Virus record (IMG/VR): IMGVR_UViG_3300043410_000417
Location: 1 to 61,976 of that record
DNA length: 61,976 nt
Origin: a virus
Taxonomy: Duplodnaviria > Caudoviricetes
Reading direction: 5' to 3' (one strand)
The position numbers were made by a program, and so were the translations under genes. Under the pieces are notes generated by a model. It was not told the origin of the DNA. It did not search any database and saw nothing but the letters and a program-made list of their open reading frames with translations. Every line of letters starts with the position of its first letter. Position 1 is the first letter of the stretch. Shown here piece after piece: positions 14,366 through 61,449 of this stretch.

Positions 14366-14798
14366 TAGTCGCTTTACCTGTTTTAACATCACACTTCTGT
14401 AAGAACTGCAACCCATCATCGTTTCTATACGAGTTTCGATACCAGACGTTCTTAATCCCTGCACCGTAGATCATCTTGGCACAATCAATGCATGGAGCAT
14501 GGGTGATGAAGATGTCTGCGCCTTGACCAGACTCATTAGATTTAGCCAGCTTAGCGATAGCGTTCGCTTCGGCATGGATCACTTCTGGTTTGGTTTTTGT
14601 TCCGAGTGGATCACCATTGTCATCATACTCTATGTATTCACATTCGTTGTCCCAACCAGAAGGTGTTCCATTGTAACCGATAGAGATGATACGGTTGTCC
14701 TTAACGACAACAGCACCAACCTTTAGACGTTTAGCAGACGACAACTGAGCAAAACGTTCAGCCGTATCCATGAAGGCATCAATCCATTTTTGTTTCAT
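14352..14798 (-). CDS. cd: dCMP deaminase
   Basis: GYNG, HAEANA and PCIDC zinc motifs. Confidence 0.93.
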   Translation of the reverse strand: MKQKWIDAFMDTAERFAQLSSAKRLKVGAVVVKDNRIISIGYNGTPSGWDNECEYIEYDDNGDPLGTKTKPEVIHAEANAIAKLAKSNESGQGADIFITHAPCIDCAKMIYGAGIKNVWYRNSYRNDDGLQFLQKCDVKTGKATNDKT

Positions 14799-18137: not shown

Positions 18138-18166
18138 ATTATACCCTAATATGCAGGATTTGTCAA
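18138..18166 (-). promoter_or_regulatory. sigma70-type early promoter
   Basis: TTGACA-17 nt-TATAAT. Confidence 0.85.
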
Positions 18167-19784: not shown

Positions 19785-19969
19785 CAGCTTCGGTTGAAAC
19801 GTAGACCAGAACCACCAACAGCACCACTCAACAGCAGAGAAGCCAGCCAAGTATCAAAAGTGTATGGGATTGCCAGTACAGGGAACAAAGTGTTCAATGC
19901 CCAGATTGAACAGAAGGGTGCCATCACTACGATGAACAGAGCGAGGAAAACGTAAAAAAGAATTTTCAT
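19784..19969 (-). CDS. small membrane protein
   Basis: Hydrophobic ORF, IWALNTLFPVLAIPYTFDTWLA. Confidence 0.7.
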   Translation of the reverse strand: MKILFYVFLALFIVVMAPFCSIWALNTLFPVLAIPYTFDTWLASLLLSGAVGGSGLRFNRS

Positions 19970-29123: not shown

Positions 29124-29819
29124 TTAATTATTGAAAAGATCATCAGCCATTGGGAACGCTTCGGCGATAACCTTAGCGCATGCGACAGCGATGTCTCTGT
29201 GTTCTTCTTGTGTGCCGTTTTCTCTGCGCAGTTCAATATAATGAACCCAGCTGCGGAGTGTGCCGTTCATGTACATACGGCTAACAGTGTTACCTTCTGG
29301 CAAAACTGCTCGCGCTTGCTCTTTAGCAATACCATGCTCAACAGCCCATGCGTAGGTTTCACGTGCTTGGTTGATTAGGTTTTGCTGCAGATTTTCCCAT
29401 TGATACGCTAGTTGGCGATGATCATCTCGCGATAGGTCTAACTTTGTAGAGTTCTGGCGGTTCTTGCTATCTTGTAGTCGGGCTTCGCGCACGACAAAGG
29501 CAAGATCCTTAGTTGGGTCTGCGTAACGTTGGGAGAATTCTTGGAATGAAAAAGAGCGATGACGTAAAATCTGACGAGCGATATCACGTGTGGTTTCGAT
29601 TTCGAGACAAACGCTAACCATCTCGAGAGGAGACCAGTGCTTGTTCTTGATCAAGTAGCGAATTAGCTTGTCTGCTGTGTCGGTGTTGAACTGGTTGCTG
29701 GGATTGCTCACTCGGGCGCAGAACGCAACTAACTCCTGCGCATCCATCAAACCTTCATCGTACATTTCACGAGATGGTTTGCTATAACTAATCAATTTTA
29801 CTTTCATACTTTCTTCCAT
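29124..29819 (-). CDS. thyX: FAD-dependent thymidylate synthase
   Basis: RHRSFSFQEFSQRY. Confidence 0.96.
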   Translation of the reverse strand: MEESMKVKLISYSKPSREMYDEGLMDAQELVAFCARVSNPSNQFNTDTADKLIRYLIKNKHWSPLEMVSVCLEIETTRDIARQILRHRSFSFQEFSQRYADPTKDLAFVVREARLQDSKNRQNSTKLDLSRDDHRQLAYQWENLQQNLINQARETYAWAVEHGIAKEQARAVLPEGNTVSRMYMNGTLRSWVHYIELRRENGTQEEHRDIAVACAKVIAEAFPMADDLFNN

Positions 29820-34531: not shown

Positions 34532-35142
34532 TAGTCATGCCCCATATGCTTACGTAAATCGTGGAACAAAGCATCTCTGTGCTCTCCCTTCATTTTGGAC
34601 GGGAGATGTTTGTGGAATTCTTCTTTGTTTCCTGCTGCGGCATGTTCACGCATCTTAGTTCCAGAGACACCGCTTGTTCCTTCAGAGTCTGGATCGCGAT
34701 CTCCAGAAGAGTGCACTGTAATAGACTTAAAATTATAATGACCGTGAGCAGATTTTTGTCCATTATATTTATGTAGTAGTTCGTGCATTGCCTCGTGGCG
34801 ATCAGAACCAGCAACTACGTGTAGGTGCTTGATTCCAGCTTTGTGCATATCTGCAGCATGGTGCAGAATAGTCGGCTTCTCTTTTGAAGCAGCAGAGATG
34901 TTAGTTCCAGGGAAAGCATTCTTAGCATGCTCAACCTTACGATCTGCTGGTAGAGGATTCTTTTTCTTATCTTGAGAGTGAGAAAGAACCACATGGTGTT
35001 CACCACCATGCTCTTTAGCAACTTCGTGAACCTTATTGACTACCTGCTCATGACCAGCAGTAGGTGGGTTCATACGACCGAAAGCGAGAACGCCGTGTTT
35101 CTCGCTCGCGCTTTCTTTTAGGAATGAAAGGAATGATAACAT
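34531..35142 (-). CDS. cytidyltransferase-like nucleotidyltransferase
   Basis: FGRMNPPTAGH, AGSDR, RDPD, SGTKMR. Confidence 0.85.
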   Translation of the reverse strand: MLSFLSFLKESASEKHGVLAFGRMNPPTAGHEQVVNKVHEVAKEHGGEHHVVLSHSQDKKKNPLPADRKVEHAKNAFPGTNISAASKEKPTILHHAADMHKAGIKHLHVVAGSDRHEAMHELLHKYNGQKSAHGHYNFKSITVHSSGDRDPDSEGTSGVSGTKMREHAAAGNKEEFHKHLPSKMKGEHRDALFHDLRKHMGHD

Positions 35143-36320
35143 TACTTTTTAACCTTTAGTAAGTTAGCCTTAGCGAACTCAGATCGGTTTACCAACTTAG
35201 TTGGCTCATTCTTATGATTAACAACGAAACCTTCTGGCTTAGACTTAGTGTCATTAATGTGGTGTTCATAACCACCTTCGTGAGTTTCTAGGTGTTTAAC
35301 TAGAGTATTCTTTGCTTGTTGTAGGTGGTGGTGCATTGAGAACAGATTACCGTAGTGCTCTTTGTTGGCTTCTACGTGGGATACATGTTCTGCAGCTTCT
35401 GCGCGCTTTGCAGTTTGAGACTTCTCAGTCTTAACCTTAGCAGCAGCCTTCTCACCTTGAGACTTAATGTGTTCTTGGAAACCCTTAGCAGATGGAACCT
35501 GATCGTTCTTAACAGTGCTATTGATGTAAGTAGTCATGTGGGAATTTTCACCACGATGCTTTTCTGTAGCTGAATACATCTTTGCGCCATGAGTATCGTG
35601 GATATCTTTGGCAGCACTCATGTGCTTGTGGAATGTTTCCTGAGCCTTCTGTGGATAGCTAATCTTAGAAGTATCGTGTTCAGCAGTGTGGTGAGCAACG
35701 TCTTTGTGCTTGCTGAACTCAGAGTCGCTAACGTGAGGAGTAGCCTTCATAGAAGCCATGTCCTTACCTTCGTACTTGGTGTGAGTAACAACACCTAGCT
35801 TAGCTTCCTTGTGAGCCTTAGCCTGATCGCCCTTAGCTGTATAGGTAATAGTGTTTGGTTTGAAAGAGACGTTACCGCTCTTGTGGTGTTCAACATCACC
35901 GCTGTGCATGATGTCACCTTGATAAACACCCTTCTTAGGAGCAACCTTTGGTAGATGCTTTAGTGCAGCACCTAGCTTATCAACTAGACCTGGAGCATGT
36001 CCATGGTTCTTTTGAATGTCTTCGTGAGTATAGTTTAGCTTAGGGTTCTTGTTAAAGGCAGACTTAGATGCAACGAAGAACTTACCAGACTCTGGGTGGT
36101 GACCGTAAACAACAGATGGAGAACCATCGTACTTCATAGTCAGACCGCTGGACTTGTGACCAGCTTTCATGTGCTCATGGGCTTGAGTTAGCGCACCATG
36201 TGCATGCTCGAAACCTTCATGACCATGCATTAGAGGGCGATCCTCTGCATGGTGAATGTGCTTTAGCTTAGCACCTTCTGCTTCCGCTTCTTCTTTTAAG
36301 AAAGAGATAAATGTCTTCAT
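35142..36320 (-). CDS. conserved T4-like protein (DUF6267-like), His-rich
   Basis: KYDGSP..KSAFNKNPK..YQGD..PNTITY..PEGFV..KLVNR.EF. Confidence 0.8.
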   Translation of the reverse strand: MKTFISFLKEEAEAEGAKLKHIHHAEDRPLMHGHEGFEHAHGALTQAHEHMKAGHKSSGLTMKYDGSPSVVYGHHPESGKFFVASKSAFNKNPKLNYTHEDIQKNHGHAPGLVDKLGAALKHLPKVAPKKGVYQGDIMHSGDVEHHKSGNVSFKPNTITYTAKGDQAKAHKEAKLGVVTHTKYEGKDMASMKATPHVSDSEFSKHKDVAHHTAEHDTSKISYPQKAQETFHKHMSAAKDIHDTHGAKMYSATEKHRGENSHMTTYINSTVKNDQVPSAKGFQEHIKSQGEKAAAKVKTEKSQTAKRAEAAEHVSHVEANKEHYGNLFSMHHHLQQAKNTLVKHLETHEGGYEHHINDTKSKPEGFVVNHKNEPTKLVNRSEFAKANLLKVKK

Positions 36321-36769
36321 TTCATTGACGCCTTTAACATCCAGCTATGCTTTTCGTGGGTATCGATACGATCCGCCAAGAAGTTACATAGCCCGTAGGT
36401 TTTATTTTCCTCACCTAGATCGTAAGCCTTCTTCAGACTTGCGAGTACTTCTAGGTTAGCCTTTTGAATTTCATTTAGAATTCCTTGGATATCTTTAACA
36501 TCACCAGTTGTTTCTGGGATAGTCTTATGATTCCACATCTCTTCTAAAGTACGTGGAGCATATGCATCTAACTTACGAATGTTCTCCGCAAGAGGATCCA
36601 CTGCACCATACACATCTTCATACAGGTCTCCTAGGAAACCATGCCATTGTGGAAAGTCTGCGCCTTCCACATTCCAATGAAACTGATGCACTTTGAAATA
36701 CATTACGAATGTATTTGCCAGTGCAATTCTCAGGGACGTTACCAACTCATCCATTATTTTGTTCTCCAT
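36317..36769 (-). CDS. dps: Dps/ferritin-like protein
   Basis: HQFHWNVEGADF..H..YE..D.LAE..HEKHSWML. Confidence 0.9.
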   Translation of the reverse strand: MENKIMDELVTSLRIALANTFVMYFKVHQFHWNVEGADFPQWHGFLGDLYEDVYGAVDPLAENIRKLDAYAPRTLEEMWNHKTIPETTGDVKDIQGILNEIQKANLEVLASLKKAYDLGEENKTYGLCNFLADRIDTHEKHSWMLKASMK

Positions 36770-37602
36770 TCTTTGAAGGATTCCTTGAAGAACGGATCGA
36801 ATGGCTTACCGTTGAGTGGCACTGTACCATTCTCAGCTGGGATAGACTTCTCACCAGTCTTCATTTTAATTTGAGACTTTTTTACCTGCTTAACTTCCTG
36901 GAGCCACTTAGAGATAAGTTTACCCTCAGAGCACTTCAAAAGCAAATGATTTGAACCTCGCTTTACAATCTCATACTCTGTGCCTGCACATTCAACGATG
37001 TCGCCCACATTAAAGATCTCGCCTCTGAAGTATTGTTCTCTCAATTCGTTCTTCACCAAGTTAATCTGTTCTTTGATTGGCTCCATACCAGAACCAACTC
37101 GAATGTCGTTCATCAAACGACGACTATCCAATTCACGAATGGAAGTAGGAAGGTTCTTCTTGAACTCTTCATACAAACCCTTTGCAGCAAGACTTCTTGT
37201 AGAGTCTTCGCTGTCTGGATCCTTGTCGCCAATAACTACAGCCTCAACGTTCAACTTCTTTAGAGAGTTAACCTTGTCTGAGCTAGTGACTACAACGATG
37301 TTCTTATAATGTTCTCTTAGGCTCTTGACGATTTCCCCGATGTTATCACCAGACTCTTTGAAGTTGGTTTTCGGGAACACCAGATCAAGATACTGGAGTT
37401 TCTTTTCTACGACTAGAGGATTCTTTTTCGCATCGCTTACATTGGATGCATAGATTACGTGGTCTGCGTTCTTAGACTCAGCCAGTTTTTTGACAGTCTT
37501 GACTAGGAGTTCGTGACCTAGTGTTGGAGGGTTAAACTTCCCACAGGCTAGAACGACAGTCTTTGACGGTAATTGCTTCAGAAATTGTCTGTAATCTTTC
37601 AT
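36754..37602 (-). CDS. second, divergent cytidyltransferase-like protein
   Basis: GKFNPPTLGH, KDPD, C-terminal LREQYFRGEIFNVGD domain. Confidence 0.75.
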   Translation of the reverse strand: MKDYRQFLKQLPSKTVVLACGKFNPPTLGHELLVKTVKKLAESKNADHVIYASNVSDAKKNPLVVEKKLQYLDLVFPKTNFKESGDNIGEIVKSLREHYKNIVVVTSSDKVNSLKKLNVEAVVIGDKDPDSEDSTRSLAAKGLYEEFKKNLPTSIRELDSRRLMNDIRVGSGMEPIKEQINLVKNELREQYFRGEIFNVGDIVECAGTEYEIVKRGSNHLLLKCSEGKLISKWLQEVKQVKKSQIKMKTGEKSIPAENGTVPLNGKPFDPFFKESFKEWRTK

Positions 37603-37644
37603 TGTAATCCATCTATAAAGTAGTATACTTATTTATAATTCGTA

Positions 37645-38940
37645 TTATTTCGTGGCTTTCTTGTCCATCTTGAACGAGATTTTCTTCAGTCCAGGTTGTC
37701 CTGCATTAGCATTATACTCGAATTTGAAGGCTGAAGAACTAAACTCTTTAACGGTATAGCTGATCGTTCTCTGGCTCTTATTGATCTTAATATAGATCTG
37801 AGAGACTACGATGCTATTGGCTGCATCATTTAGGACGCTAAGGTAGGTCTCGTTTTCATTTAGGGTATCGACAAGAGAGTAACCTAGAGGGGATATGATA
37901 AGACCCCAGCGTTTAGCCTTCGTGTCGAAGATACGCTTGGCGATCATATCAGAACCTGCTCTACCGATTAGTTCGTAGAACGGTTGAAGTTCGGCGAGAC
38001 AGGCGGTATGGCTCTTATAGCCAGCTAGAACTGTCTCGCACTGAGCAGCAGTAAAGTCCTTGTTACCGAAGAGGTTCTTCTTCAACCATAGGTATCCAGG
38101 ATGCTTAAGATCCTTCGCTGCTTCGACGATACCATCTACCGTGCTGTTATCGCTAATGGCAATGATAGCCTTTCTAGCGTTTTCCTTAGCAACGACCTGA
38201 TAAGAGTTAGGTCTAAGGATGTCGGCGATAGCATTGATAGAAGGTGGTGCACCTTCGTTGGCTTTAGCTGAAACCGCGATCTTGTTTTTACCCACGTGAG
38301 CGTAATAGTCAACAAGGGCTGCGTTCGACTCGGTTGGGTAGCTGATAGCGTCAACCTTCTTATTAAACTGGTTCATAAACCAGACGGCACCAGAGAGTTC
38401 ACCGAAGTCTTTTGCGATGATGTTAATGTCTGGATCAGAGATAGTGCCGATGTACTTGTCGGAAACCTTCGGGTCTGCTGCAGCTGAAGCAGTTAGTAAT
38501 TCGTTTAGGAATCCCTTAATGTTCTCTGGGGCATCAGAGTTCTTGATACTTGTCTTGACGTTAGTGACGAAGGTAGTCTTAGTAATCTTCTTACCACCGA
38601 AACCTAATCTGTCAGGGGTTAACTGCTTAGTCTTTAGAACACCCTTAGAAGACACAGCGAGAATGAAGTAGATCTTATCACCCTTCTTCGCCCCATCAAT
38701 ACCCTTACCGATCGTTAGCTCTTGAGTTACGTATGTACCAGAGATAGAAACGTCTGTCTCTTTTAACGTGCAGGAAAGGATAGAGTTAAGCAGCTTAAGA
38801 ACGTCGCCAGCATAGCTAATACGTAGGTGTGGACCACCTCTGGATGGCTTCATAGGTTCCACTCCAGCTTTCTTCAAGCCGTCAGAGTAGAACTTAATAA
38901 TGGCACTTTGTGCCTGTTTGCTGGTAGTGATCGCTGCCAT
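37645..38940 (-). CDS. hypothetical protein, possible PD-(D/E)xK nuclease fold
   Basis: DFGE..LVD..AVSAK spacing; 431 aa. Confidence 0.55.
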   Translation of the reverse strand: MAAITTSKQAQSAIIKFYSDGLKKAGVEPMKPSRGGPHLRISYAGDVLKLLNSILSCTLKETDVSISGTYVTQELTIGKGIDGAKKGDKIYFILAVSSKGVLKTKQLTPDRLGFGGKKITKTTFVTNVKTSIKNSDAPENIKGFLNELLTASAAADPKVSDKYIGTISDPDINIIAKDFGELSGAVWFMNQFNKKVDAISYPTESNAALVDYYAHVGKNKIAVSAKANEGAPPSINAIADILRPNSYQVVAKENARKAIIAISDNSTVDGIVEAAKDLKHPGYLWLKKNLFGNKDFTAAQCETVLAGYKSHTACLAELQPFYELIGRAGSDMIAKRIFDTKAKRWGLIISPLGYSLVDTLNENETYLSVLNDAANSIVVSQIYIKINKSQRTISYTVKEFSSSAFKFEYNANAGQPGLKKISFKMDKKATK

Positions 38941-38968
38941 AGTTATTCAATTATACAAGAATAACTAT

Positions 38969-39661
38969 TTATGTCAAGCGTTTAGAATACTTTCTATCCC
39001 ACTTGGCGATCTGCTGGATGATCTTTTGAGGGGAGATGTTGTTTCTGAAGTCGTAGTTGAACGTCTTCAAGAAATAGTGGAGAGTGGATGAGTCGCGGTA
39101 GGTCTTACATCTCAATAGTAGGGTTTGTACTGGGATGTTAGGCTTCTTCATTTTGAAGTCTAGGTACACACAGTGGGCGTATGCCTGAATCTCATCAAAT
39201 TCAGAAAGGTATCTACGCTCGGCATCTTTGAGAGAATGACCGACTCTCTTATATGGTACGACATACTTACTGTCTTCGTCGTAGCGACGATCGTACTGCA
39301 TAAAGTGGATCATCTCGTGCATCAGAGTCTGGATGACACGATACTTAAACTTATCCCAAGTCTTCTGAGTAAACGTATATTTATCGAAGTTGGTTGTGTA
39401 GATGTGGATGGTGCACTGACGTTCGTCTGGAGCATACTCCCCACCGACAGCCACGTATTTAGACCAAGTCTTCTTCGGAGGATCTCTAAACTCTATTCTA
39501 GTTTTCCACTTCCTAAAATAGTTTGAGAGACCAGACGAGTCATTTTCATACTCGTCTAAGTCTCTCCAGATTTTTGCAGGGATGAGTTTAGCTCTAAATG
39601 GACGCTCATAGAAATTGAGCATATCCATCCAGTCGAAATTAGCTGTTTCTAGGAAATTCAT
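38969..39661 (-). CDS. HExxH-containing hypothetical protein
   Basis: HEMIHFMQ..YL..DEIQAYA. Confidence 0.7.
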   Translation of the reverse strand: MNFLETANFDWMDMLNFYERPFRAKLIPAKIWRDLDEYENDSSGLSNYFRKWKTRIEFRDPPKKTWSKYVAVGGEYAPDERQCTIHIYTTNFDKYTFTQKTWDKFKYRVIQTLMHEMIHFMQYDRRYDEDSKYVVPYKRVGHSLKDAERRYLSEFDEIQAYAHCVYLDFKMKKPNIPVQTLLLRCKTYRDSSTLHYFLKTFNYDFRNNISPQKIIQQIAKWDRKYSKRLT

Positions 39662-39683: not shown

Positions 39684-40292
39684 TCAACCTAGATGTTGAT
39701 CAAAGAAGGCTAGGACTTTCGCTTGCTCCTGTAAGTTAGTGTTACTAAACTCAGTAATATAGGGCATCAAGTCAAAATTCGATAGTAGATTACTATATTT
39801 AGTCTCGCGCCCTCTTAGGAATTGCTCGGACTGATCGGAGCCTCGTTCCTTGTAGCGTTGTTCTAGGAGATCCTTCGGAGCCTTCAAATAGACCACCTGA
39901 AGGTCAGTGTTCGGGAGACTCATACAAAACTCTAGGAAAGACTGGTTGAAGACTCGGTCACCTTCGAAGAGGATGTTACAGTTATTTGAGGAGATCCACT
40001 CTTGAAGAGGAGGCTGGACTGCCATAGAAAGACGGTCGGTTCCAGCGAAGGTTTCACCTTCCTCGTACTTACCGAGAACATATAGGTCGCGTTCTGCATT
40101 GTAGGAAGCAGAAACCAGTTTGGCTGGCTCACCAACGATCCAGTCCTTACCTTCCATATACTTACGGAAGAGAGTAGTCTTGCCAGTTCCAGGCTGACCA
40201 CCAACCGCGATAATCTTACGGGTTTTCAAAGTATTCTTGATCAGCTTAACTTCGATCTGATCCTGTACGCCTAACTTATCTACAAATGACAT
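39684..40292 (-). CDS. P-loop kinase of DNA base-modification clusters
   Basis: GGQPGTGKTT, LGKY..FAGTDRLS, FEGDR; adjacent to aGPT-Pplase gene. Confidence 0.75.
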   Translation of the reverse strand: MSFVDKLGVQDQIEVKLIKNTLKTRKIIAVGGQPGTGKTTLFRKYMEGKDWIVGEPAKLVSASYNAERDLYVLGKYEEGETFAGTDRLSMAVQPPLQEWISSNNCNILFEGDRVFNQSFLEFCMSLPNTDLQVVYLKAPKDLLEQRYKERGSDQSEQFLRGRETKYSNLLSNFDLMPYITEFSNTNLQEQAKVLAFFDQHLG

Positions 40293-40301
40293 TTTATATC
40301 C

Positions 40302-41321
40302 TTAAGCAAATGCTTCCAAACCAACTAGAACTGGTTGCTCATCATTGAACATCCATTCCAGATTCTCTAACTTACCAGTATTGACAAAGGATGAGAATCT
40401 CTCCTTATCAATACCCTTCTTATTATCCAAACGCAGGTCGATGGTTTCGTTTCGGGCATCCCACATTACCTGCCATTCGATACCATACCACTCGTCGCCC
40501 TCGCACTTCATAATCTCTTCAGCCTGACGATCTAGGTAGTAACCCAGATAACGTCCATGGTGTTCACGGAAAATCTTCTTGAATGAACACAGGCAGGTTT
40601 CCATTGTGAAGAAGTCTACCTGATCACTTATTGTTGGGAATCTCGCTCTCGTTTCATCCAAGATGGACTTGGCTTCTTGCTCCAGATATACATACTCTGC
40701 TCCAGTAAGTTTCGCATCGTATTTGTCATCTTTTCCAAGGGCGAGAAGAAGCCCGTTACGATGGCTACGAGAGCCATCAAAATCATCAAGCATAAGTGAA
40801 GTAGGGCTAATCCGAATACCAGCGGTATGCTTAAGATGCTGAAGATAAAACCAAGTAGAGTAACGACCAAACTTGTGGAGGCTACCTTTAACGCCTTCCC
40901 AAAGATTGGTAAATGACTGTTCTTCTGTATCACCATAATATGACTCCAATACCTCGCGTTGTGTTTTGTTACCGATAAACTTATGATACGACTCGAACAT
41001 TGCAGGGAGATGCCCCTTGTTCCACTTTGTATCAGTCTGATAGCGCAGACGTTTGTAGTTGGCAGTGTTCCACTGCTCCATACGATCTACAGTGGCTAGT
41101 TCGTAGTCTGGAAATTCATTCATCAGAACCCAAGCAGTTGGCAGGTAGTAGGTGTTACCGTACAACCAGCAAAGCCATAGCTTCTGCTCAGTGTTATGTT
41201 CGTAGCGTTTGTTCAGGTAGTTGGTAGCCCAGACTGCTGGATCACAATCATCATACTTCAATGACCAAGCATACCAACGAATGAACGCCTCACGACGATT
41301 CTGTTTTTCTCTGTAATCCAT
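40302..41321 (-). CDS. amino acid:DNA transferase (aGPT-Pplase-like, HhH glycosylase fold)
   Basis: FGRYSTWFYLQHL, SHRNGL, METCLCSFKK, GRYLGYYLDR. Confidence 0.75.
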   Translation of the reverse strand: MDYREKQNRREAFIRWYAWSLKYDDCDPAVWATNYLNKRYEHNTEQKLWLCWLYGNTYYLPTAWVLMNEFPDYELATVDRMEQWNTANYKRLRYQTDTKWNKGHLPAMFESYHKFIGNKTQREVLESYYGDTEEQSFTNLWEGVKGSLHKFGRYSTWFYLQHLKHTAGIRISPTSLMLDDFDGSRSHRNGLLLALGKDDKYDAKLTGAEYVYLEQEAKSILDETRARFPTISDQVDFFTMETCLCSFKKIFREHHGRYLGYYLDRQAEEIMKCEGDEWYGIEWQVMWDARNETIDLRLDNKKGIDKERFSSFVNTGKLENLEWMFNDEQPVLVGLEAFA

Positions 41322-41962
41322 TATTTCAAAAAGTCTTCAAGTGACGGTTGTTCCATCAATGCTTCACGCAACCAAGCCTTACCGACATAGTCGATAGCTT
41401 CCTGAGTCTTGGCTTTCTTCTTATCACCCCACGTGTACGATTCTAATCCTTCGCGTCGGAATTGCTCTCGCGCTTTTTGTGGAGGTAAAGATTGTAGTGG
41501 GTAGACGATGGCTTTGTCCCGCCATGCGATCTGTTCTGCGCGTGTAGCGAATAGTGGTTGGTCGCTGCGGAGTGAACCAGTGGGGTCAACTGCCCAGAAC
41601 ACCAGACCATTCCGTAAGTGCCAAGTGACAGACGTTGGTGTGCATGATATTTTGAGGCGTTTGACGTTTCGTTCTTCGACTGCGTATTTGATCCACGCAT
41701 CCCAGCATTTCGACGCATAACCTTTTCCTTCTTTTCCTTCTACCGTAACAATCTCGTAAAGGTTAGCGTAGCCATCACGATTGAATGTAGCGAAGATCAA
41801 TGAGACGATCTCACCGTTGTCTTCAAGAGCCATCGGTAAGTTTTTCTCGTAGTTGTGAAATCTAGTCCACAATGAATGTGCAGCCGATAAGAACTTGGTG
41901 TTCCTACCAGCTGGACTTTCATCGATAATCTGTTGGACTTTTGTTGAGTTAATGAATAACAT
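41321..41962 (-). CDS. GNAT-fold acetyltransferase
   Basis: IVTVEGKEGKGYAS acetyl-CoA motif A. Confidence 0.7.
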   Translation of the reverse strand: MLFINSTKVQQIIDESPAGRNTKFLSAAHSLWTRFHNYEKNLPMALEDNGEIVSLIFATFNRDGYANLYEIVTVEGKEGKGYASKCWDAWIKYAVEERNVKRLKISCTPTSVTWHLRNGLVFWAVDPTGSLRSDQPLFATRAEQIAWRDKAIVYPLQSLPPQKAREQFRREGLESYTWGDKKKAKTQEAIDYVGKAWLREALMEQPSLEDFLK

Positions 41963-42665
41963 TTTGTAAGTCGACTGCGCCATCAATTTTTTCTTGTTCA
42001 ACCATCATACACAAATCAGAATCGAATCTGAAGTATGTATTCATTGCAATTAGAGTAGTTGGATCTTCAATACCTGCTCGTTTTACAACATCGGCAGTAG
42101 AGGTAATTATACACGCATTGGGTCTAGATGTCAAATATAACGGACGCTTGCCATTACGGAACACTGTAAGCGACTTGGTTCTTCCAAGCATACAGACTGC
42201 AAGGGAAGAATCCTTCCACTTCAACAGAGGAGATTCACCATGACCGAAGGTATGTAGCAAGAGTTCGGTATCGTTCTTACCCTCACACTTGTAACCGTAT
42301 AGCTTCTCCCAGTTCTCTGGAAGTTCTTGAGTGATAACACCGTTGTGAACCACGCTAATAAAAGAGTTGTAGATCGGTTGGTTATACTCGAGATCAGAAG
42401 TGCTGTAACGACAGTGACCGACTAGGTAAAGGTTACCATCTTCGTTGACCATATCGCGAAGGTTATCGTTGTGCATGAACTTCTCAATGAACTGATCAGC
42501 AGGGATAGGCTCTTTGATAGTTTCAATTCCTTTAGACCACTTAGGCAAAAAGGAGATGCCTGTCGCATGCATCCCACGAATACGAGACTCGTGGAAGACG
42601 CGCTTAAGCATCTCGAAATCATCAACAGTTGGCTTTTGAATAATCGCGCCAATTACAGAACACAT
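41949..42665 (-). CDS. class II (Ntn) glutamine amidotransferase
   Basis: N-terminal MC, RG.HATG, GHCRYSTS, NQP, HNG, ND(T)E. Confidence 0.9.
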   Translation of the reverse strand: MCSVIGAIIQKPTVDDFEMLKRVFHESRIRGMHATGISFLPKWSKGIETIKEPIPADQFIEKFMHNDNLRDMVNEDGNLYLVGHCRYSTSDLEYNQPIYNSFISVVHNGVITQELPENWEKLYGYKCEGKNDTELLLHTFGHGESPLLKWKDSSLAVCMLGRTKSLTVFRNGKRPLYLTSRPNACIITSTADVVKRAGIEDPTTLIAMNTYFRFDSDLCMMVEQEKIDGAVDLQNVIH

Positions 42666-43261
42666 TATAGAATCTCCAAGTGAGTTAGGTTTTTCTTGCT
42701 ACCCAAAACACCTTTATAAAAAGTATTGAACGCCAAAGAGATTCTAGTCTCTCTGGTGTTATTCACATTCACCCCATGGGGCGTTTGAGAAGGGAACAAA
42801 ATAATGTCTCCCTGCTCAACATCAATAGAACGCATCGGTGAATTGTAAGGTGTCATCTTACTTATCAGCGGACGCAACGGATAGTTGTCCTGCTTTCTAA
42901 ACACCATGAACGGTGCTGGATTTGGTGATAGGTAAATCACTCCACTCACAATGCTGTTTACGTGTATGTGTGTATGGTGAGAAGTATTATACTCATTGAA
43001 GTTCATCCACGATTGGGTGATCTCCAGTGAGACTCCAGAAGCACCCATCACCTTATCTAGATAAGTGTTCAGATGTTGCTGAACCTTTTCTCTTAGGGAA
43101 TCAACTCTATCTAAGACAGCGCTGTCGTTCGATGTAGTGTTTCCATACGTATTGCTATACTCACCACTGGCTCTGATAGAAGCCAGAGAAGATAACTCTT
43201 CATCGCTGAATGTTATCTTCCCCTTATACAAAGGCTCTGGAAAGATTTCCAGAACTTCCAT
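42665..43261 (-). CDS. 2OG-Fe(II) oxygenase (TIGR02466-like)
   Basis: SWMN..HIHVNS.VSGV.Y..FPS..PHGV..RISLAFN. Confidence 0.85.
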   Translation of the reverse strand: MEVLEIFPEPLYKGKITFSDEELSSLASIRASGEYSNTYGNTTSNDSAVLDRVDSLREKVQQHLNTYLDKVMGASGVSLEITQSWMNFNEYNTSHHTHIHVNSIVSGVIYLSPNPAPFMVFRKQDNYPLRPLISKMTPYNSPMRSIDVEQGDIILFPSQTPHGVNVNNTRETRISLAFNTFYKGVLGSKKNLTHLEIL

Positions 43262-44625
43262 CAGAAGAACCCTTCGAGGCTATTAGCCTTCTCAGCTTCT
43301 GGGTGATACTTCAATAGGTTTTCGCGACCTAGTTTAGACTCACAATATTCATACCACTCTTCAGACTCCCACATACCAGATGAAACACCGTTCCATAGAT
43401 GACGCTCAGAACCGTCTTCGTTCTTATGTCCTGGATGTTCCTTGTTCAAACGACGACCTTCAACGAATTCGTAACGGCAGTCTTCGTAGTCTTTGCTACC
43501 CAACTGTAGCATATTCTCACGGAAGTAGCAAACCAAAGAAACACGTTCTGCTTCTTCGTCCAACATTTCGATTGGAGTGTTACCGTGCATAACTTCGTGG
43601 TTGTTGATCAGCAGTAGGTCACCTGGACGAACGTTGACAGCAACACGGTACTCAGGAGCAACTAAGTAGCCACCTTTGTAGTTACCGTTGTTGGACAGAA
43701 CCAGAAGGTTAGACAAACCAGTGTCCAAGTCACCTGCGTCATAGTGAGCAGCAGTGCGGAAAGTCTTGTTCACAGTGATAGTAGTGAACGGAGTTCCAGG
43801 GACTAGGTAGCGAGAGTCCAACTTCTTCGCAGCTTCCATCTGGTTGTTGTATCTCCAAGGAAGAAGATCCTTGAAACCAGCAGCCAGAGTTTGTAGGAAT
43901 GGGAAAGCCATCGCAAACTTCTCTGGGTTCTTCTCAGTGTAAGAAGTCGCACGACCATAAGGGATACGTGGATAACGATCAAACCAACCAGCAATACCAG
44001 AGAACACACCGTTAGCGTAAGTAGTTGCGCAAACATACTTGTTTACGATACGCTTAGCTTCTGCACGTTGTTCATCAGGCATTAACTTACGAGTAGCCTC
44101 GACCCAATCTTCGAAGACGAAATTGTCTTTCTTAACAGCCTGAATACCCCAGACATTGTTCTTATTAGATGGCTGAGTTGCCTTACCAGCGTGAGCAGCT
44201 TTAATCTCTTCGACTGGATCAGTACCCATAATGTTGGCTTTAGGGTTTGAGAAGAAGTCGATGATATCATACTCATAGTCAGTAACCCACTCACGATTAC
44301 CTAGCTTCTCACCACGTGGACCAGCAGCAATACCGCGATTCTGAGTTTCAACTGCAGCTTCTCTCAGACCAAGATATGCAGCATCCTGTTCTTCTTTAGT
44401 GAAGTAGTTCTTGCGAAACTTAAAGATAATCTTGCGCTCATCCATACCCTTAGAGCAAGTGTTACAGTCGCTAGTGCAAACCGCCTGATCACCCAGATCG
44501 CAGTCTGGTGGTGCATATACATCACAATCTTCTTCAACAAGAACATCATAATGACGCTCGTCCACAAACTGACCTAGCAAGTGAGATGCGTCTAATTTTT
44601 CTTTGGCTACGATTACCTTAACCAT
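43261..44625 (-). CDS. TET/JBP-family 2OG-Fe(II) nucleobase dioxygenase
   Basis: PFTTITVN.TFRTAAHYDAGD, HGNT, RVSLVCYFRE; GGAGA RBS before MVKV. Confidence 0.85.
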   Translation of the reverse strand: MVKVIVAKEKLDASHLLGQFVDERHYDVLVEEDCDVYAPPDCDLGDQAVCTSDCNTCSKGMDERKIIFKFRKNYFTKEEQDAAYLGLREAAVETQNRGIAAGPRGEKLGNREWVTDYEYDIIDFFSNPKANIMGTDPVEEIKAAHAGKATQPSNKNNVWGIQAVKKDNFVFEDWVEATRKLMPDEQRAEAKRIVNKYVCATTYANGVFSGIAGWFDRYPRIPYGRATSYTEKNPEKFAMAFPFLQTLAAGFKDLLPWRYNNQMEAAKKLDSRYLVPGTPFTTITVNKTFRTAAHYDAGDLDTGLSNLLVLSNNGNYKGGYLVAPEYRVAVNVRPGDLLLINNHEVMHGNTPIEMLDEEAERVSLVCYFRENMLQLGSKDYEDCRYEFVEGRRLNKEHPGHKNEDGSERHLWNGVSSGMWESEEWYEYCESKLGRENLLKYHPEAEKANSLEGFF

Positions 44626-46030: not shown

Positions 46031-46319
46031 CTCCGCCTGTATATGATACCATATTCTTCTGCAGCTGTTCTAAAATAATCAGCTGCAGCATATCTCCAAG
46101 GTACTGCTCAAGTTCTTCTTTGATGTAAGTGACACCTGCATCTTCGTGTACATCGTACTCGAAACTCATTTTGCAGCTATCACCACTCTCATCAAAAGCA
46201 ACCTTACCGTAAGAAAAGATTATACCCGCATATGGCGGTTCTGTCAACTTTAGTCGATAAGCGCCAGTTGTGGCGCTCTCCAGAACCACGAATGGTGGTT
46301 TAGCTAGATGATCACTCAT
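45984..46319 (-). CDS. hypothetical protein (between uvsX and gp41)
   Basis: 111-aa ORF at conserved T4-like position. Confidence 0.7.
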   Translation of the reverse strand: MSDHLAKPPFVVLESATTGAYRLKLTEPPYAGIIFSYGKVAFDESGDSCKMSFEYDVHEDAGVTYIKEELEQYLGDMLQLIILEQLQKNMVSYTGGVDENRTTDSEQTDLR

Positions 46320-47662: not shown

Positions 47663-48211
47663 TTATGGATTATTCTTCGAATGCGGTACATCGAAAACGA
47701 ATGTAACGCGAACGTTGTCACCAATGTTTTTAGTCCCATGTGGTAATTTATTGTTGAACCAAAGTAGAGTTCCAGGCTCCACTGTAACAGATTCATCTCC
47801 TACAGTGTATATGTATCTGCCTTGTATGGACAGATGATAGCGATCCCTAGTTTGGTAGTAAGTTCCAATGTCGATATGAGTTCCAACCTCTCCACCAACT
47901 GGGAGTGAAAGGAAACCACAACGACTGACTTTCTTGAAGTGACGTTTGACGAAACTAATCACTTCGTTATGTCTATTATAGGCTGCAGTTGGTACACAGA
48001 TTTCTGAGTCACCAACATACTGTCCGACCTCAGAGATTGCACCCATGACCAGCTGGAGAACACCAGCCTGAACTTCAGGGAATCCGTAGGTGAGCATGGA
48101 TTTTACTCCATCCTCTCTAGTCTGAACTCCCCAATCTTCTGGATGTTTCTCCAACTGCCTTAGAATCTTCGATACGTTAAGACCAGTCTTAATGATACGA
48201 ATATTATCCAA
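47663..48211 (-). CDS. aspartyl/asparaginyl beta-hydroxylase-like 2OG oxygenase
   Basis: HIDIGTYY..RYHL..WFNNKLPH..RVTFVFD. Confidence 0.8.
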   Translation of the reverse strand: MDNIRIIKTGLNVSKILRQLEKHPEDWGVQTREDGVKSMLTYGFPEVQAGVLQLVMGAISEVGQYVGDSEICVPTAAYNRHNEVISFVKRHFKKVSRCGFLSLPVGGEVGTHIDIGTYYQTRDRYHLSIQGRYIYTVGDESVTVEPGTLLWFNNKLPHGTKNIGDNVRVTFVFDVPHSKNNP

Positions 48212-53717: not shown

Positions 53718-53746
53718 ATTATACATCAATCCTGCAACTTTGTCAA
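53718..53746 (-). promoter_or_regulatory. sigma70-type early promoter
   Basis: TTGACA-17 nt-TATAAT. Confidence 0.85.
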
Positions 53747-61420: not shown

Positions 61421-61449
61421 ATTATACAGCAGGTTGCACCAAATGTCAA
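61421..61449 (-). promoter_or_regulatory. sigma70-type early promoter
   Basis: TTGACA-17 nt-TATAAT. Confidence 0.85.

What the first reader, a model, noticed from the sequence alone, without database searches (positions are those of the whole stretch)
39684..44625. TET/JBP-initiated DNA hypermodification cluster with amidotransferase and acetyltransferase
Seen: directly behind gp41, a tightly packed run of TET/JBP dioxygenase, a second 2OG oxygenase, class II glutamine amidotransferase, GNAT, aGPT-Pplase-like amino acid:DNA transferase and P-loop kinase. Established: in ViI, M6, phiW-14 and SP10, 5-hmdU is made at nucleotide level, phosphorylated on DNA by a kinase and substituted by an amino acid:DNA transferase. 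Here thyX supplies ordinary dTMP and no dUMP hydroxymethylase is visible in the window. Inference: T (or 5mC) is oxidised on DNA, phosphorylated, substituted with glutamine-derived ammonia or an amino acid and then N-acetylated, giving something like 5-acetylaminomethyl-dU by a different route, or a new base.
Basis: partly seen in the sequence, partly recalled or inferred. Interest (0 to 1): 0.78.

Follow-up and report, generated by a model that had tools for sequence, protein, structure and literature searches.

The report
Phage thymine hypermodification cassette with amidotransferase
A T4-like phage from a metagenome carries a compact gene set that probably oxidises thymine in its own DNA and then swaps the new hydroxyl for a glutamine-derived, acetylated amino group; gene sets of this kind are already in print, but the amidotransferase step has not been explained.

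Summary
Directly behind gp41, on the minus strand, lie six tightly coupled genes. They encode a TET/JBP dioxygenase, a 2OG-FeII_Oxy_5 oxygenase, a class II glutamine amidotransferase (GATase), a GNAT, an amino acid:DNA transferase (ADDT, PF18724) and a P-loop kinase.

TET-GATase-GNAT-ADDT-kinase is a conserved cassette: 39 of the 43 related IMG/VR loci that span it carry all five genes. The second oxygenase is a scattered multi-copy gene and not a core member.

The window and four (near-)complete relatives have ThyX. None has a ThyA-family hydroxymethylase, a C5-methyltransferase or ParB. Thymine is therefore the likely TET substrate.

New evidence concerns the amidotransferase:
- 8 of 150 representative ADDT homologues carry an N-terminal homologue of this GATase, which is the classic amidotransferase architecture.
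- A predicted GATase:ADDT complex scores 0.88 against 0.00 for the best of 3 controls.

Best reading: T -> 5hmU -> 5-phosphomethyl-U -> glutamine-dependent amination to 5-aminomethyl-U -> N-acylation, probably giving 5-acetylaminomethyl-dU.

TET-initiated thymidine hypermodification clusters containing GATases are already described (PMC8989533, PMC13229309), but the GATase function is stated there to be unknown. This is a new variant of a known kind, and nothing here is shown experimentally.

The parts
43261..44625 (-). TET/JBP-family 5-methylpyrimidine dioxygenase (454 aa), the likely thymine dioxygenase that makes 5hmU on DNA
   Evidence: PF12851, 1.7e-27; phrog_24024, 6.8e-163. H294-x-D296, H347 and R361 are invariant in 28 clade sequences. 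The core is 47% identical to the 304-aa TET of the ParB-linked cassette L089, with extra segments at about 103-200 and at the C-terminus.
42665..43261 (-). 2OG-FeII_Oxy_5 oxygenase (198 aa); an accessory insertion, probably not a core pathway member
   Evidence: PF13759, 4e-18. It sits between TET and GATase in only 2 of the 43 spanning loci, plus L008 and L050, which do not reach the flank. The family is scattered at 0-4 copies per genome, and G003 has the cassette with no copy at all.
41949..42665 (-). Stand-alone class II (Ntn) glutamine amidotransferase domain (238 aa); proposed glutaminase subunit that feeds NH3 to the ADDT
   Evidence: PF13522 and PF13537. It starts with MC. C2, R30-G31, H84-C-R86-Y-S-T89, H107-N108-G109 and N131-D132-x-E134 are invariant in 30 sequences and align with the glutaminase domain of E. 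coli GlmS. Homologous domains are fused N-terminally to ADDT in 8 of 150 representatives. Predicted complex with ADDT: 0.88 against controls at 0.00.
41321..41962 (-). GNAT-fold acyltransferase (213 aa); proposed N-acylation of the aminomethyl group
   Evidence: PF00583, 1.8e-5 and above the cut-off. The EGKEGKGYA motif is conserved. It is 51% identical to the GNAT at the same position in L089. It shows no similarity to PaMx11 gp48. In L013 and L046 an Amidoligase_2 protein takes its place.
40302..41321 (-). Amino acid:DNA transferase family protein (ADDT, formerly aGPT-Pplase; 339 aa); proposed acceptor subunit that replaces the phosphate of 5-phosphomethyl-U with nitrogen
   Evidence: PF18724, 4.5e-22. 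E241, T242 and C245 align with the catalytic Glu243, Thr244 and Cys247 of PaMx11 gp46, and are conserved in 107-108 of 110 sequences (residue roles from PMC11472151 sections 14 and 22). The glycine-binding Trp146 and Lys150 of gp46 are Tyr154 and Phe158 here.
39684..40292 (-). P-loop kinase (202 aa), the likely 5-hmdU DNA kinase
   Evidence: PF18751, 2.8e-8 and above the cut-off. Walker A motif GQPGTGKT. 25% identical to PaMx11 gp49, E 6e-7.
42106..42134 (-). Perfect sigma-70 consensus promoter inside the GATase gene, 144 nt upstream of the GNAT start
   Evidence: It is one of 7 perfect TTGACA-N16-18-TATAAT matches, all on the gene strand, against 0.03 expected. It is perfect at the same place in 44 of 68 related GATase genes, and has at most 1 mismatch in 56 of 68.
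38969..39661 (-). Conserved flanking gene (230 aa, HExxH motif). It follows the cassette in every variant, and its link to the pathway is unproven.
   Evidence: Present downstream of the cassette in 43 of the 80 related loci, and used there to define which loci span the cassette, the glycosyltransferase variants included; L013 extends past the kinase but lacks it. No Pfam or PHROG match at standard thresholds. Weak SprT-like and DUF3920 hints. AF2 pLDDT 91.8. Only weak fold matches, TM at most 0.37, to HExxH proteins.
29124..29819 (-). ThyX, which supplies ordinary dTMP (context for the substrate argument)
   Evidence: PF02511, 1.1e-44. Present in 5 of 5 genomes searched.

Best explanation
This is a post-replicative thymine hypermodification cassette of an uncultured T4-like phage. 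It is expressed together with the replication genes.

Proposed steps:
1. The TET/JBP-family dioxygenase hydroxylates the methyl group of thymine in DNA, giving 5-hydroxymethyluracil. This is inferred from family membership, intact catalytic residues and the absence of any other 5-methyl- or 5-hydroxymethyl-pyrimidine source.
2. The P-loop kinase phosphorylates 5hmU on DNA to 5-phosphomethyl-U. This is inferred from homology to characterised 5-hmdU DNA kinases.
3. The stand-alone class II glutaminase docks on the ADDT and forms a two-subunit amidotransferase. Ammonia released from free glutamine attacks the exocyclic methylene that the ADDT generates through its catalytic Cys. The phosphate is displaced and 5-aminomethyl-dU results in one step. 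This would be the PurF logic applied to a DNA base. It is inferred from the fusions, the predicted complex and the conserved glutamine-binding residues.
4. The GNAT acylates the new primary amine, most simply giving 5-acetylaminomethyl-dU. That is the base reconstituted for Pseudomonas phage PaMx11, reached here without the glycine and FAD-lyase detour. This step is inferred.

The 2OG-FeII_Oxy_5 gene is an accessory passenger or an optional tailoring enzyme. By analogy with other hypermodified phages, the purpose is probably protection of phage DNA from host nucleases.
For: **Membership and residues**
- The domain calls are above curated cut-offs.
- TET has invariant HxD...H and R residues.
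- The ADDT aligns at E241, T242 and C245 with the catalytic triad of PaMx11 gp46 (PMC11472151 sections 14 and 22).
- The kinase matches PaMx11 gp49 with E 6e-7.

**Substrate**
- ThyA family: 0 of 5 genomes. C5-methyltransferase: 0 of 5. ThyX: 5 of 5. This covers the window plus four relatives that are 96-100% complete.

**Modular logic**
- Of 43 related loci that span the cassette, 39 carry GATase, GNAT, ADDT and kinase.
- One locus replaces GNAT with an amidoligase-like protein plus a ParB-domain protein.
- Three loci keep TET but replace everything else with a cytidylyltransferase-like protein and a GT1 glycosyltransferase.
- TET is therefore the constant supplier of a common precursor. GATase travels with ADDT and kinase, not with TET.

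**GATase-ADDT coupling**
- 6 of 10 long ADDT homologues scanned are GATase(N-terminal)-ADDT(C-terminal) fusions.
- A profile of the window-clade GATase finds such a domain in 8 of 150 representatives, and 6 of these begin with MCG.
- One fusion (P0141, locus L088) sits beside a 5-hmdU DNA kinase (PF18748) and a ThyA-family enzyme.
- The predicted complex scores 0.88, with the best of 3 controls at 0.00. That mark was reached by 58 of 80 solved complexes and 2 of 110 mismatched pairs. The runs agree in at least 97% of contacts, and partner pLDDT is at least 89.
- The interface holds the glutaminase active-site loops (residues 1, 28-33, 87-89, 109-110) and ADDT residues 279-285. The latter align with the gp46 pocket wall Lys261/Asp262 next to the C5 substituent.

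**Glutaminase residues**
- The residues matching GlmS Cys1, Arg73, Thr76, Asn98-Gly99 and Asp123 are invariant. Their roles are recalled from the GlmS literature.

**Independent occurrence**
- An independent cassette, L089, has ParB-TET-GATase-GNAT-ADDT-kinase in the same order. Its GNAT is 51% identical and its TET 47% identical to the window's.
Against: - Nothing here is biochemical. No modified base has been measured for this phage clade.
- The complex prediction used my own alignments, and these include the natural fusion proteins. That may itself drive the high score. It shows compatibility, not binding.
- In the ADDT tree the GATase-fused sequences fall in two places, and the backbone that joins them to the window's clade is weak (support 60-88, FastTree only).
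- The replacement of gp46 Trp146/Lys150 is shared with the ViI-like serine-transferase type (Leu/Asn), so it does not single out ammonia.
- The GNAT's acyl donor is unknown, and it is unrelated to PaMx11 gp48.
- A fused glutaminase could in principle act on a DNA-bound glutaminyl group instead of supplying ammonia.
- The published ParB-dependent subclass that carries the same partner genes needs ParB on dsDNA (PMC13229309). No ParB is found here, in 0 of 5 genomes. Whether this longer TET is active on its own is therefore untested.
- The AF2 model of the TET was unusable, with pLDDT 53.
Confidence: 0.5

Rival explanations
1. This is the same DNA pathway, but the ADDT transfers a free amino acid (for example glycine, serine, glutamate or glutamine), as in M6, PaMx11 and ViI. 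The GATase and the GNAT then tailor the appended amino acid, for example by amidating a carboxylate, deamidating a glutaminyl group or acetylating it. The result would be a new base rather than 5-AcNmdU.
For: All ADDTs characterised so far use amino acids or putrescine (PMC8989533, table in section 16). In L013 and L046 the GATase sits next to an Amidoligase_2 protein, a pairing that could amidate a carboxylate. The ADDT tree does not cleanly separate GATase-linked from other ADDTs.
Against: The GATase is fused to the ADDT itself, not to the amidoligase or GNAT, in 8 of 150 representatives, and in the N-terminal position typical of ammonia-channelling enzymes. The predicted interface puts the glutaminase active site against the ADDT. 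The residues that bind the free alpha-amino and alpha-carboxylate groups of glutamine in GlmS are conserved. The Trp and Lys that hold glycine in gp46 are absent.
Confidence: 0.22
2. The TET acts on 5-methylcytosine, made by a host enzyme or an unrecognised methyltransferase. The cassette would then hypermodify cytosine (5hmC -> 5-phosphomethyl-C -> aminomethyl-C derivatives).
For: Phage TETs of clades A and B oxidise 5mC, and P-loop kinases occur in some C5-MT/TET contigs (PMC8256090, passages read). Characterised phage T-dioxygenases can also oxidise 5mC (PMC13229309, abstract).
Against: No PF00145 methyltransferase is found in the window or in 4 (near-)complete relatives, 0 of 5, while the control genomes ring. 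Published T-dioxygenase clusters are the ones linked to GATase, kinase and AADT (PMC13229309 section 5). The GATase-ADDT fusion in L088 sits beside a ThyA-family enzyme and a 5-hmdU DNA kinase.
Confidence: 0.05
3. The genes are not one pathway acting on DNA. They are co-located auxiliary genes, or they act on RNA, on free nucleotides or on a small molecule.
For: T4-like marine and freshwater phages carry many scattered 2OG oxygenases and metabolic genes. One of the six genes does look like such a passenger.
Against: Five genes keep their order and their translational coupling in 39 of 43 spanning loci, and also in an unrelated ParB-linked contig. Three of the families (TET/JBP, ADDT and the 5-hmdU DNA kinase type) are known only from DNA base modification (PMC8989533, PMC13229309). 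Fusions link GATase, kinase, a phosphatase and PLP enzymes to ADDT.
Confidence: 0.05

Closest known systems
Metavirome thymidine-hypermodification clusters in which TET_JBP replaces dUMP hydroxymethylase (Lee et al. 2021, NAR, PMC8989533, section 21 and the Fig. 2 legend, sequences 22-25)
   Same: A TET_JBP gene lies next to a 5-hmdU DNA kinase and an AADT (ADDT) without a nearby 5mC source. The authors likewise infer T -> 5hmU on DNA as the starting point. Amidotransferase and amidoligase genes are noted as co-associated.
   Different: That paper states that the functions of the amidoligase and glutaminotransferase genes are not known. It describes no GATase-ADDT fusion or complex. I could not see the figure or the supplements, so I cannot tell whether this T4-like clade is among their contigs.
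ParB-dependent phage T-dioxygenases (5mYOX clade C1) linked to GATase, P-loop kinase and AADT (O'Toole et al. 2026, PNAS, PMC13229309, sections 5, 11-13)
   Same: The partner gene set is the same. The independent contig L089 has ParB-TET-GATase-GNAT-ADDT-kinase with proteins 47-51% identical to the window's. T oxidation by relatives has been shown in vivo and in vitro.
   Different: No ParB is found in the window or in 4 (near-)complete relatives; only variant L046 has a ParB-domain gene. The TET here has 454 aa, against about 300 in L089. It has an extra segment of about 70 aa where the paper's 'variable insertion' domain would lie, and a longer C-terminus. The backbone is a T4-like myovirus. 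The downstream chemistry was not studied in that paper.
PaMx11 5-acetylaminomethyl-dU pathway (gp46 glycine:DNA transferase, gp47 FAD lyase, gp48 acetyltransferase, gp49 kinase; PMC8989533, PMC11472151)
   Same: Both have a kinase, an ADDT and an acetyltransferase-fold enzyme. The predicted end product is the same. The ADDT catalytic residues Glu, Thr and Cys are conserved. The kinase is homologous.
   Different: 5hmU comes from a ThyA-family hydroxymethylase in PaMx11 (annotated) but from TET here. There is no FAD oxidoreductase here. A GATase takes the place of the glycine plus lyase route. The GNAT is not detectably related to gp48. The ADDT belongs to a distant subclade: hhalign found no match, and my profile misses gp46.
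Class II (Ntn) glutamine amidotransferases such as PurF and GlmS
   Same: An N-terminal Cys nucleophile and conserved glutamine-binding and oxyanion residues. The glutaminase lies N-terminal to the acceptor domain in the fused forms. As in PurF, ammonia would displace a phosphoryl leaving group.
   Different: The acceptor domain is an ADDT acting on a base in polymeric DNA. In the window the two halves are separate polypeptides. No ammonia tunnel has been demonstrated.
Base J pathway (JBP1/2 plus a glucosyltransferase) and the phage TET-glycosyltransferase clusters
   Same: A TET/JBP enzyme makes 5hmU on DNA as the handle for a second enzyme. Sister contigs L063, L066 and L077 carry TET plus a GT1 glycosyltransferase at the same locus.
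   Different: The window's variant uses phosphorylation and nitrogen substitution, not glycosylation.

Membership tests
Post-replicative thymidine hypermodification pathway (5-HMUDK + AADT type, Lee 2018/2021) | A source of 5-hmdU in phage DNA (a dUMP hydroxymethylase, or TET/JBP acting on T) | tested here: met
   TET_JBP domain at 96 bits against a cut-off of 34.9. HxD...H and R are invariant. ThyA family found in 0 of 5 genomes. The activity itself was not tested.
Post-replicative thymidine hypermodification pathway (5-HMUDK + AADT type, Lee 2018/2021) | 5-hmdU DNA kinase (P-loop) | tested here: met
   PF18751 at 34 bits against a cut-off of 27. BLASTP against PaMx11 gp49 gives E 6e-7 and 25% identity. 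A Walker A motif is present.
Post-replicative thymidine hypermodification pathway (5-HMUDK + AADT type, Lee 2018/2021) | AADT/ADDT (PF18724) with the catalytic Cys and the metal-binding Glu and Thr | tested here: met
   PF18724 at 79 bits against a cut-off of 26.2. E241, T242 and C245 align with gp46 E243, T244 and C247.
Post-replicative thymidine hypermodification pathway (5-HMUDK + AADT type, Lee 2018/2021) | A hypermodified thymidine detected in virion DNA | not testable with these tools
   The contig is an uncultured metagenomic sequence. LC-MS of nucleosides is needed.
ParB-dependent phage T-dioxygenase clusters (O'Toole 2026) | A ParB homologue encoded beside the 5mYOX | tested here: not met
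   PF02195 found in 0 of 5 genomes at E <= 0.1, while the control rang in 11 of 14 genomes. ParB is present in the orthologous cassette L089 and in variant L046.
ParB-dependent phage T-dioxygenase clusters (O'Toole 2026) | Association with GATase, P-loop kinase and AADT | tested here: met
Class II (Ntn) glutamine amidotransferase | N-terminal Cys nucleophile plus the conserved Arg, Asn-Gly and Asp of the glutamine site | tested here: met
   The protein starts with MC. C2, R86, N108-G109 and D132 are invariant in 30 sequences. The profile aligns with the E. coli GlmS glutaminase domain, E 1.3e-3.
Class II (Ntn) glutamine amidotransferase | Physical coupling to an acceptor (synthase) domain | tested here: inconclusive
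   Fusions to ADDT in 8 of 150 representatives. Predicted complex at 0.88 against controls at 0.00. This is computational only, and my alignments contained the fusions.
PaMx11-type 5-AcNmdU pathway | An FAD-dependent glycinylthymine lyase (gp47 type) | tested here: not met
   No FAD-oxidoreductase domain occurs in any of the six cassette genes or the two downstream ORFs.
PaMx11-type 5-AcNmdU pathway | An acetyltransferase homologous to gp48 | tested here: not met
   BLASTP E 3.4. Both proteins are GNAT-like by annotation only.
C5-MT/TET 5hmC hypermodification clusters (Burke 2021) | A DNA cytosine-C5 methyltransferase paired with the TET | tested here: not met
   PF00145 found in 0 of 5 genomes, while the control rang in 9 of 14.

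The most novel reading that the evidence does not exclude
The stand-alone glutaminase and the ADDT together form a class II amidotransferase whose acceptor is a nucleobase in polymeric DNA. Glutamine-derived ammonia displaces phosphate from 5-phosphomethyluracil and makes 5-aminomethyl-dU in one step. This would be an enzyme activity not described so far. It would give a second, convergent route to 5-(acyl)aminomethyl-dU, and it appears widespread in an abundant clade of uncultured T4-like phages. The primary amine would be a shared intermediate that different clade members decorate with a GNAT, an amidoligase or radical-SAM enzymes.
Probability: 0.5. Interest if true: 0.7.

Novelty: new variant of a known kind. 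Interest (0 to 1): 0.55.

Why it matters
Thymidine hypermodification protects phage DNA from restriction enzymes and other nucleases, and it supplies enzymes for DNA labelling and sequencing chemistry.

The published surveys list GATases and amidoligases in these clusters as enzymes of unknown function. If the GATase:ADDT pair aminates DNA directly, four things follow:
- An open point in those pathway maps is filled.
- A DNA base joins the list of amidotransferase acceptors.
- The shared intermediate, 5-aminomethyl-dU, explains why GNAT, amidoligase and radical-SAM genes swap at one position in related phages.
- A short enzymatic route becomes available for installing a reactive primary amine on DNA.

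The cassette also shows a ParB-less, enlarged TET in a T4-like background. This bears on the recent question of what makes phage T-dioxygenases dependent on ParB or independent of it.

The clade is abundant: 503 confirmed IMG/VR stretches for the TET, and 1423 ADDT proteins at E <= 1e-5 in the 90%-clustered collection. The modification could therefore be common in nature.

Tried and rejected
**Searches and folds that led nowhere**
- Megablast of the cassette against cultured phages: no match.
- PDB sequence searches with the single GATase and the single ADDT: no hits. The ADDT clade profile against PDB gave only chance hits.
- hhalign of the ADDT clade profile against PaMx11 gp46 failed, with probability 0.3. 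The equivalences in this report come from a 110-sequence MAFFT L-INS-i alignment instead.
- My first guess, that W141 and K145 correspond to gp46 W146 and K150, was wrong by that alignment. The correct residues are Y154 and F158.
- AF2 of the TET with a 28-sequence clade alignment gave pLDDT 53. I judged it unusable and did not fold-search it.
- The TET N-terminal 220 residues have no Pfam hit at E <= 5. ESM Atlas features point only to Tet_JBP clusters at 0.81-0.83, which is a lead only. hhalign against the ParB-domain protein of L046 found no likeness.
- The search for homologous proteins for the ADDT returned only near-identical clade members among the 120 listed, so it did not help alignment depth.

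**unk230**
- No homologue in cultured phages.
- The fold search gave only weak HExxH matches with TM at most 0.37, so I assign no function.

**The 2OG-FeII_Oxy_5 gene**
- I considered it as a core pathway member and rejected this.
- It is not similar to the 2OG oxygenase beside the L088 fusion.

**Literature**
- A search for Cr30 DNA modification found nothing relevant.
- Searches for a characterised GATase role, plus passages read in PMC8989533, PMC13229309, 10.1101/2025.08.14.668559 and PMC13458397, found no such characterisation.

- Figures and supplements of the papers were not available.

Full report
**What is there**

The window is an entire IMG/VR viral record of 61,976 bp, estimated to be 38% complete. 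It carries the replication module of a T4-like phage:
- gp41 helicase, UvsX, gp43 polymerase, ligase and primase;
- RNase H, ribonucleotide reductase, ThyX and the clamp loader.

The polymerase is at best 54.7% identical to those of cyanomyoviruses, so this is an uncultured lineage.

On the minus strand, 10 nt after the gp41 stop codon, six genes follow each other. Neighbours overlap by 1-14 nt or are 9 nt apart.

| Gene | Coordinates |
|---|---|
| TET/JBP | 43261-44625 |
| 2OG-FeII_Oxy_5 | 42665-43261 |
| Class II GATase | 41949-42665 |
| GNAT | 41321-41962 |
| ADDT | 40302-41321 |
| P-loop kinase | 39684-40292 |

The real TET start is the ATG at 44625, which follows AAGGAG. All six families are recovered by Pfam: the ADDT, the kinase, the TET, the oxygenase and the GATase above the curated cut-offs, and the GNAT above the cut-off for PF00583. 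PHROGs agrees.

**Conservation and modularity**

A scan of IMG/VR with the TET confirmed 503 of 509 candidate stretches, and the best 80 (71-90% identity) were kept. gp41 lies directly upstream in 64 of the 65 loci that have enough upstream sequence.

Forty-three of the 80 loci reach from the TET to the conserved flanking gene that I call unk230. They divide as follows:
- 37 carry GATase-GNAT-ADDT-kinase.
- 2 carry these four genes plus the extra oxygenase, as the window does.
- 1 (L046) replaces the GNAT with an Amidoligase_2-like protein and a ParB_N-domain protein.
- 3 (L063, L066, L077) keep the TET but replace the other four genes with a cytidylyltransferase-like protein and a GT1 glycosyltransferase.

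Other variants also exist:
- L007 and L022 add one or two radical-SAM enzymes between ADDT and kinase.
- L013 has GATase-Amidoligase_2-LMW phosphatase-ADDT-kinase.

The TET is therefore the constant element, and the tailoring genes swap. The GATase goes with ADDT and kinase and is lost together with them.

The 2OG-FeII_Oxy_5 gene is not a core member. The family is scattered at 0-4 copies per genome, with a second copy in the window at 13817-14464. Genome G003 has the full cassette and no copy of this family at all.

**Substrate**

I searched the window and four relatives that are 96-100% complete.

| Family | Genomes with a match |
|---|---|
| ThyA family (would include dUMP or dCMP hydroxymethylases) | 0 of 5 |
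| ThyX | 5 of 5 |
| C5-cytosine methyltransferase | 0 of 5 |
| ParB_N | 0 of 5 |
| TET_JBP | 5 of 5, one copy each |

Each negative search rang in control genomes. Thymine is thus the only 5-methylpyrimidine the phage itself provides. The TET keeps H294-x-D296, H347 and R361 in all 28 aligned clade members.

**What is already known**

- Lee et al. 2021 (PMC8989533; I read section 21 and further passages) describe metavirome contigs in which TET_JBP takes the place of dUMP hydroxymethylase next to the 5-hmdU DNA kinase and the AADT. They infer T -> 5hmU on DNA. [quoted passage not shown]
- O'Toole et al. 2026 (PMC13229309; I read the abstract and sections 5, 11, 12 and 13) show that phage 5mYOX enzymes oxidise T in vivo and in vitro. 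They define a ParB-dependent subclass 'consistently linked with' GATases, P-loop kinases and AADTs.
- The PaMx11 pathway was reconstituted in PMC8989533: kinase gp49, glycine:DNA transferase gp46, FAD lyase gp47 and acetyltransferase gp48, giving 5-acetylaminomethyl-dU. The gp46 mechanism is given in PMC11472151 (sections 14 and 22): Cys247 attacks C6, Glu243 and Thr244 hold the metal, and Trp146 and Lys150 hold glycine.

Three literature searches and the passages I read found no characterisation of the GATase step. Figures and supplements were not available to me.

**New evidence on the GATase**

1. *Glutaminase residues.* The protein begins with MC. Across 30 clade sequences C2, R30-G31, H84-C-R86-Y-S-T89, H107-N108-G109 and N131-D132-x-E134 are invariant. 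The profile aligns these with the E. coli GlmS glutaminase domain. By my recollection of the GlmS literature they correspond to the nucleophile, the oxyanion hole and the residues that bind the alpha-carboxylate and alpha-amino groups of free glutamine.

2. *Natural fusions.* A full HMMER search of 1.84 billion representative proteins with the ADDT gave 362 hits at E <= 1e-3.
   - Of ten long hits scanned with Pfam, six are GATase(N-terminal)-ADDT(C-terminal) fusions. The others are LMW phosphatase-ADDT, ADDT-kinase, HMUD2 kinase...ADDT and PLP enzyme-ADDT.
   - A profile of the window-clade GATase finds a homologous N-terminal domain in 8 of the 150 listed representatives, E 4e-50 to 3e-20. 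Six of these start with MCG.
   - This is the domain order of classical class II amidotransferases.

3. *Context of a fusion.* The fusion P0141 lies in contig L088 beside a PF18748 5-hmdU DNA kinase and a ThyA-family enzyme. The fused enzyme therefore works in a 5hmU context.

4. *Predicted complex.* The window's ADDT and GATase score 0.88 as a pair, with the best of 3 controls at 0.00.
   - That mark was reached by 58 of 80 solved complexes and 2 of 110 mismatched pairs.
   - The runs agree in at least 97% of contacts, and partner pLDDT is at least 89.
   - The GATase side of the interface holds residue 1 and the loops 28-33, 87-89 and 109-110, which are the active-site elements.
   - The ADDT side holds residues 38-46, 67-83 and 279-285.
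   - In a 110-sequence alignment, ADDT residues 284-285 align with gp46 Lys261/Asp262, part of the pocket towards which the C5 substituent points (PMC11472151 section 14).
   - Caveats: my own alignments were used, and they include the fusions. No like complex has been solved, so the pass is not from memory, but it shows compatibility only.

5. *ADDT active site.* The ADDT keeps the catalytic residues: E241, T242 and C245 align with gp46 E243, T244 and C247, conserved in 107-108 of 110 sequences. It has Tyr154 and Phe158 where the glycine transferases gp46 and M6 gp51 have Trp and Lys. All eight fused ADDTs also lack the Trp/Lys pair. However, the ViI-like serine type lacks it too. This says 'not a glycine pocket' and no more.

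**Independent cassette**

Contig L089 encodes, in the same order, ParB_N, TET (304 aa), GATase, a GNAT-like protein, ADDT and a P-loop kinase. Its GNAT is 51% identical (E 1e-68) and its TET core 47% identical (E 5e-49) to the window's.

Relative to that TET, the window's enzyme has extra segments at about residues 37-61 (Cys-rich) and about 103-200, and a C-terminus that is about 60 aa longer. The 103-200 segment lies where O'Toole et al. place the 'variable insertion' domain, whose exchange made a ParB-dependent enzyme independent (PMC13229309 section 11). That this enlargement replaces ParB here is my inference only.

**Best explanation and its weak points**

The proposed sequence is:
1. 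T -> 5hmU, by the TET.
2. 5hmU -> 5-phosphomethyl-U, by the kinase.
3. 5-phosphomethyl-U -> 5-aminomethyl-U, by the GATase:ADDT pair using glutamine.
4. 5-aminomethyl-U -> N-acyl, probably N-acetyl, aminomethyl-U, by the GNAT.

I put about 0.85 on 'DNA thymine hypermodification cassette', about 0.55 on ammonia as the nucleophile and about 0.45 on acetyl as the final group. For the whole chain I give 0.5.

Points against:
- There is no biochemistry.
- The ADDT tree (FastTree) places the fused sequences in two groups, with weak backbone support.
- The GNAT is unrelated to gp48, and its donor is unknown.
- The pairing of GATase with an amidoligase in L013 and L046 would also fit amidation of an appended amino acid.
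- Whether this TET works without ParB is untested.
- The TET model was unusable.

**Surroundings**

- unk230 (38969-39661) follows the cassette in all 43 loci that I counted as spanning it, because I used it to define that set. It carries an invariant HExxH motif. It folds confidently, with pLDDT 91.8. It matches only weakly to HExxH proteins: an alpha-ketoglutarate oxygenase HExxH domain, ArdC and SPRTN, all with TM at most 0.37. I leave its function open.
- Seven perfect sigma-70 consensus promoters lie in the window, all on the gene strand, against 0.03 expected.
- One of them sits inside the GATase gene, 144 nt before the GNAT start. It is perfect at the same place in 44 of 68 related GATase genes. 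This suggests a separate transcript for GNAT-ADDT-kinase.

**Verdict**

The finding is real and correctly read. The kind of system is known from metagenomic surveys and from recent enzymology of the TET step. The window represents a ParB-less variant borne by a T4-like phage. The amidotransferase step, so far unexplained in print, now has a specific and testable mechanism supported by fusions and by a predicted complex.

Noticed in passing
window 18138-18166, 38950-38977, 42106-42134, 46219-46247, 51891-51919, 53718-53746, 61421-61449 (all minus strand): Seven perfect TTGACA-N16-18-TATAAT promoters, all on the gene strand, against 0.03 expected by chance. The one inside the GATase gene is perfect at the same position in 44 of 68 related loci, and has at most 1 mismatch in 56 of 68. 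Its hexamers are written in the Leu-Thr and Cys-Ile-Ile codons.
   Followed up: partly
window 38969-39661 (-): A 230-aa protein with an invariant HExxH motif follows the cassette in all 43 loci counted as spanning it, and it is what defines that set. It has no homologue in cultured phages. The AF2 model has pLDDT 91.8. Fold matches are weak only: the HExxH domain of an alpha-ketoglutarate oxygenase (8s5f, TM 0.37), ArdC and SPRTN. It could be a DNA-protein-crosslink protease, an anti-restriction protein or an oxygenase. This is unresolved.
   Followed up: partly
L007:11725-13155; L022:11689-15173; L013:10043-11433; L046:7681-10422; L066:8025-9792: Sister contigs swap tailoring genes at the same locus. 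The swaps are one or two radical-SAM enzymes (one with a B12-binding domain), Amidoligase_2 plus an LMW phosphatase, an Amidoligase_2-like protein plus a ParB_N protein, or a cytidylyltransferase-like protein plus a GT1 glycosyltransferase in place of GATase, GNAT, ADDT and kinase.
   Followed up: partly
P0122, P0125, P0167, P0190 (ADDT homologues): Further ADDT fusions exist: LMW phosphotyrosine-phosphatase-ADDT, ADDT-Ploopntkinase3, HMUD2 kinase...ADDT (1278 aa) and PLP-dependent enzyme-ADDT. P0168, P0199 and P0217 have N-terminal extensions of 235-315 aa that do not match the GATase profile and were not identified.
   Followed up: partly
L001 (Caulobacter phage Cr30) 8001-16894; L003 (phage C48C1) 7962-11409: The cultured phage Cr30 carries a TET 48% identical to the window's. 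It also has a 409-aa ADDT (PF18724, 1.3e-52), a weak TET-associated glycosyltransferase match and a kinase-like protein 39% identical to the window's kinase. Phage C48C1 has a TET followed by an unknown 344-aa protein and a UDP-galactopyranose mutase. A literature search found no report of modified DNA in Cr30.
   Followed up: partly
window 33119-38940 (-): Downstream of unk230 lie an unknown 431-aa protein, two cytidylyltransferase-like proteins (36754-37602 and 34531-35142), a ferritin/Dps-like protein (36317-36769), DUF6267 (35142-36320) and an unknown 470-aa protein. Cytidylyltransferase and DUF6267 occur fused in phrog_455. Any link to the cassette was not tested.
   Followed up: no
window 13817-14464 (-) and 47663-48211 (-): There is a second 2OG-FeII_Oxy_5 copy. 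A cupin / Asp-Arg-hydroxylase-like protein lies between gp43 and UvsX, and this second gene is conserved at that place in many relatives.
   Followed up: no
window 18960-19850 (-): A class IV aminotransferase (PF01063, 1.1e-31) sits in the replication region. It is an unusual auxiliary gene.
   Followed up: no
L085 (Mycobacterium phage Fortunato) 1-2826: Gene 2 encodes 522 aa, with the ADDT in the C-terminal two thirds and an unidentified N-terminal part of about 120-170 aa. It is preceded by a ParB-like gene 1 and followed by a gene annotated 'terminase small subunit', which is probably the kinase.
   Followed up: no
L088:4123-4920: A 265-aa TauD/2OG-FeII_Oxy_3-like oxygenase lies beside the GATase-ADDT fusion, the 5-hmdU DNA kinase and the ThyA-family gene. 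It is not similar to the window's 2OG-FeII_Oxy_5.
   Followed up: partly
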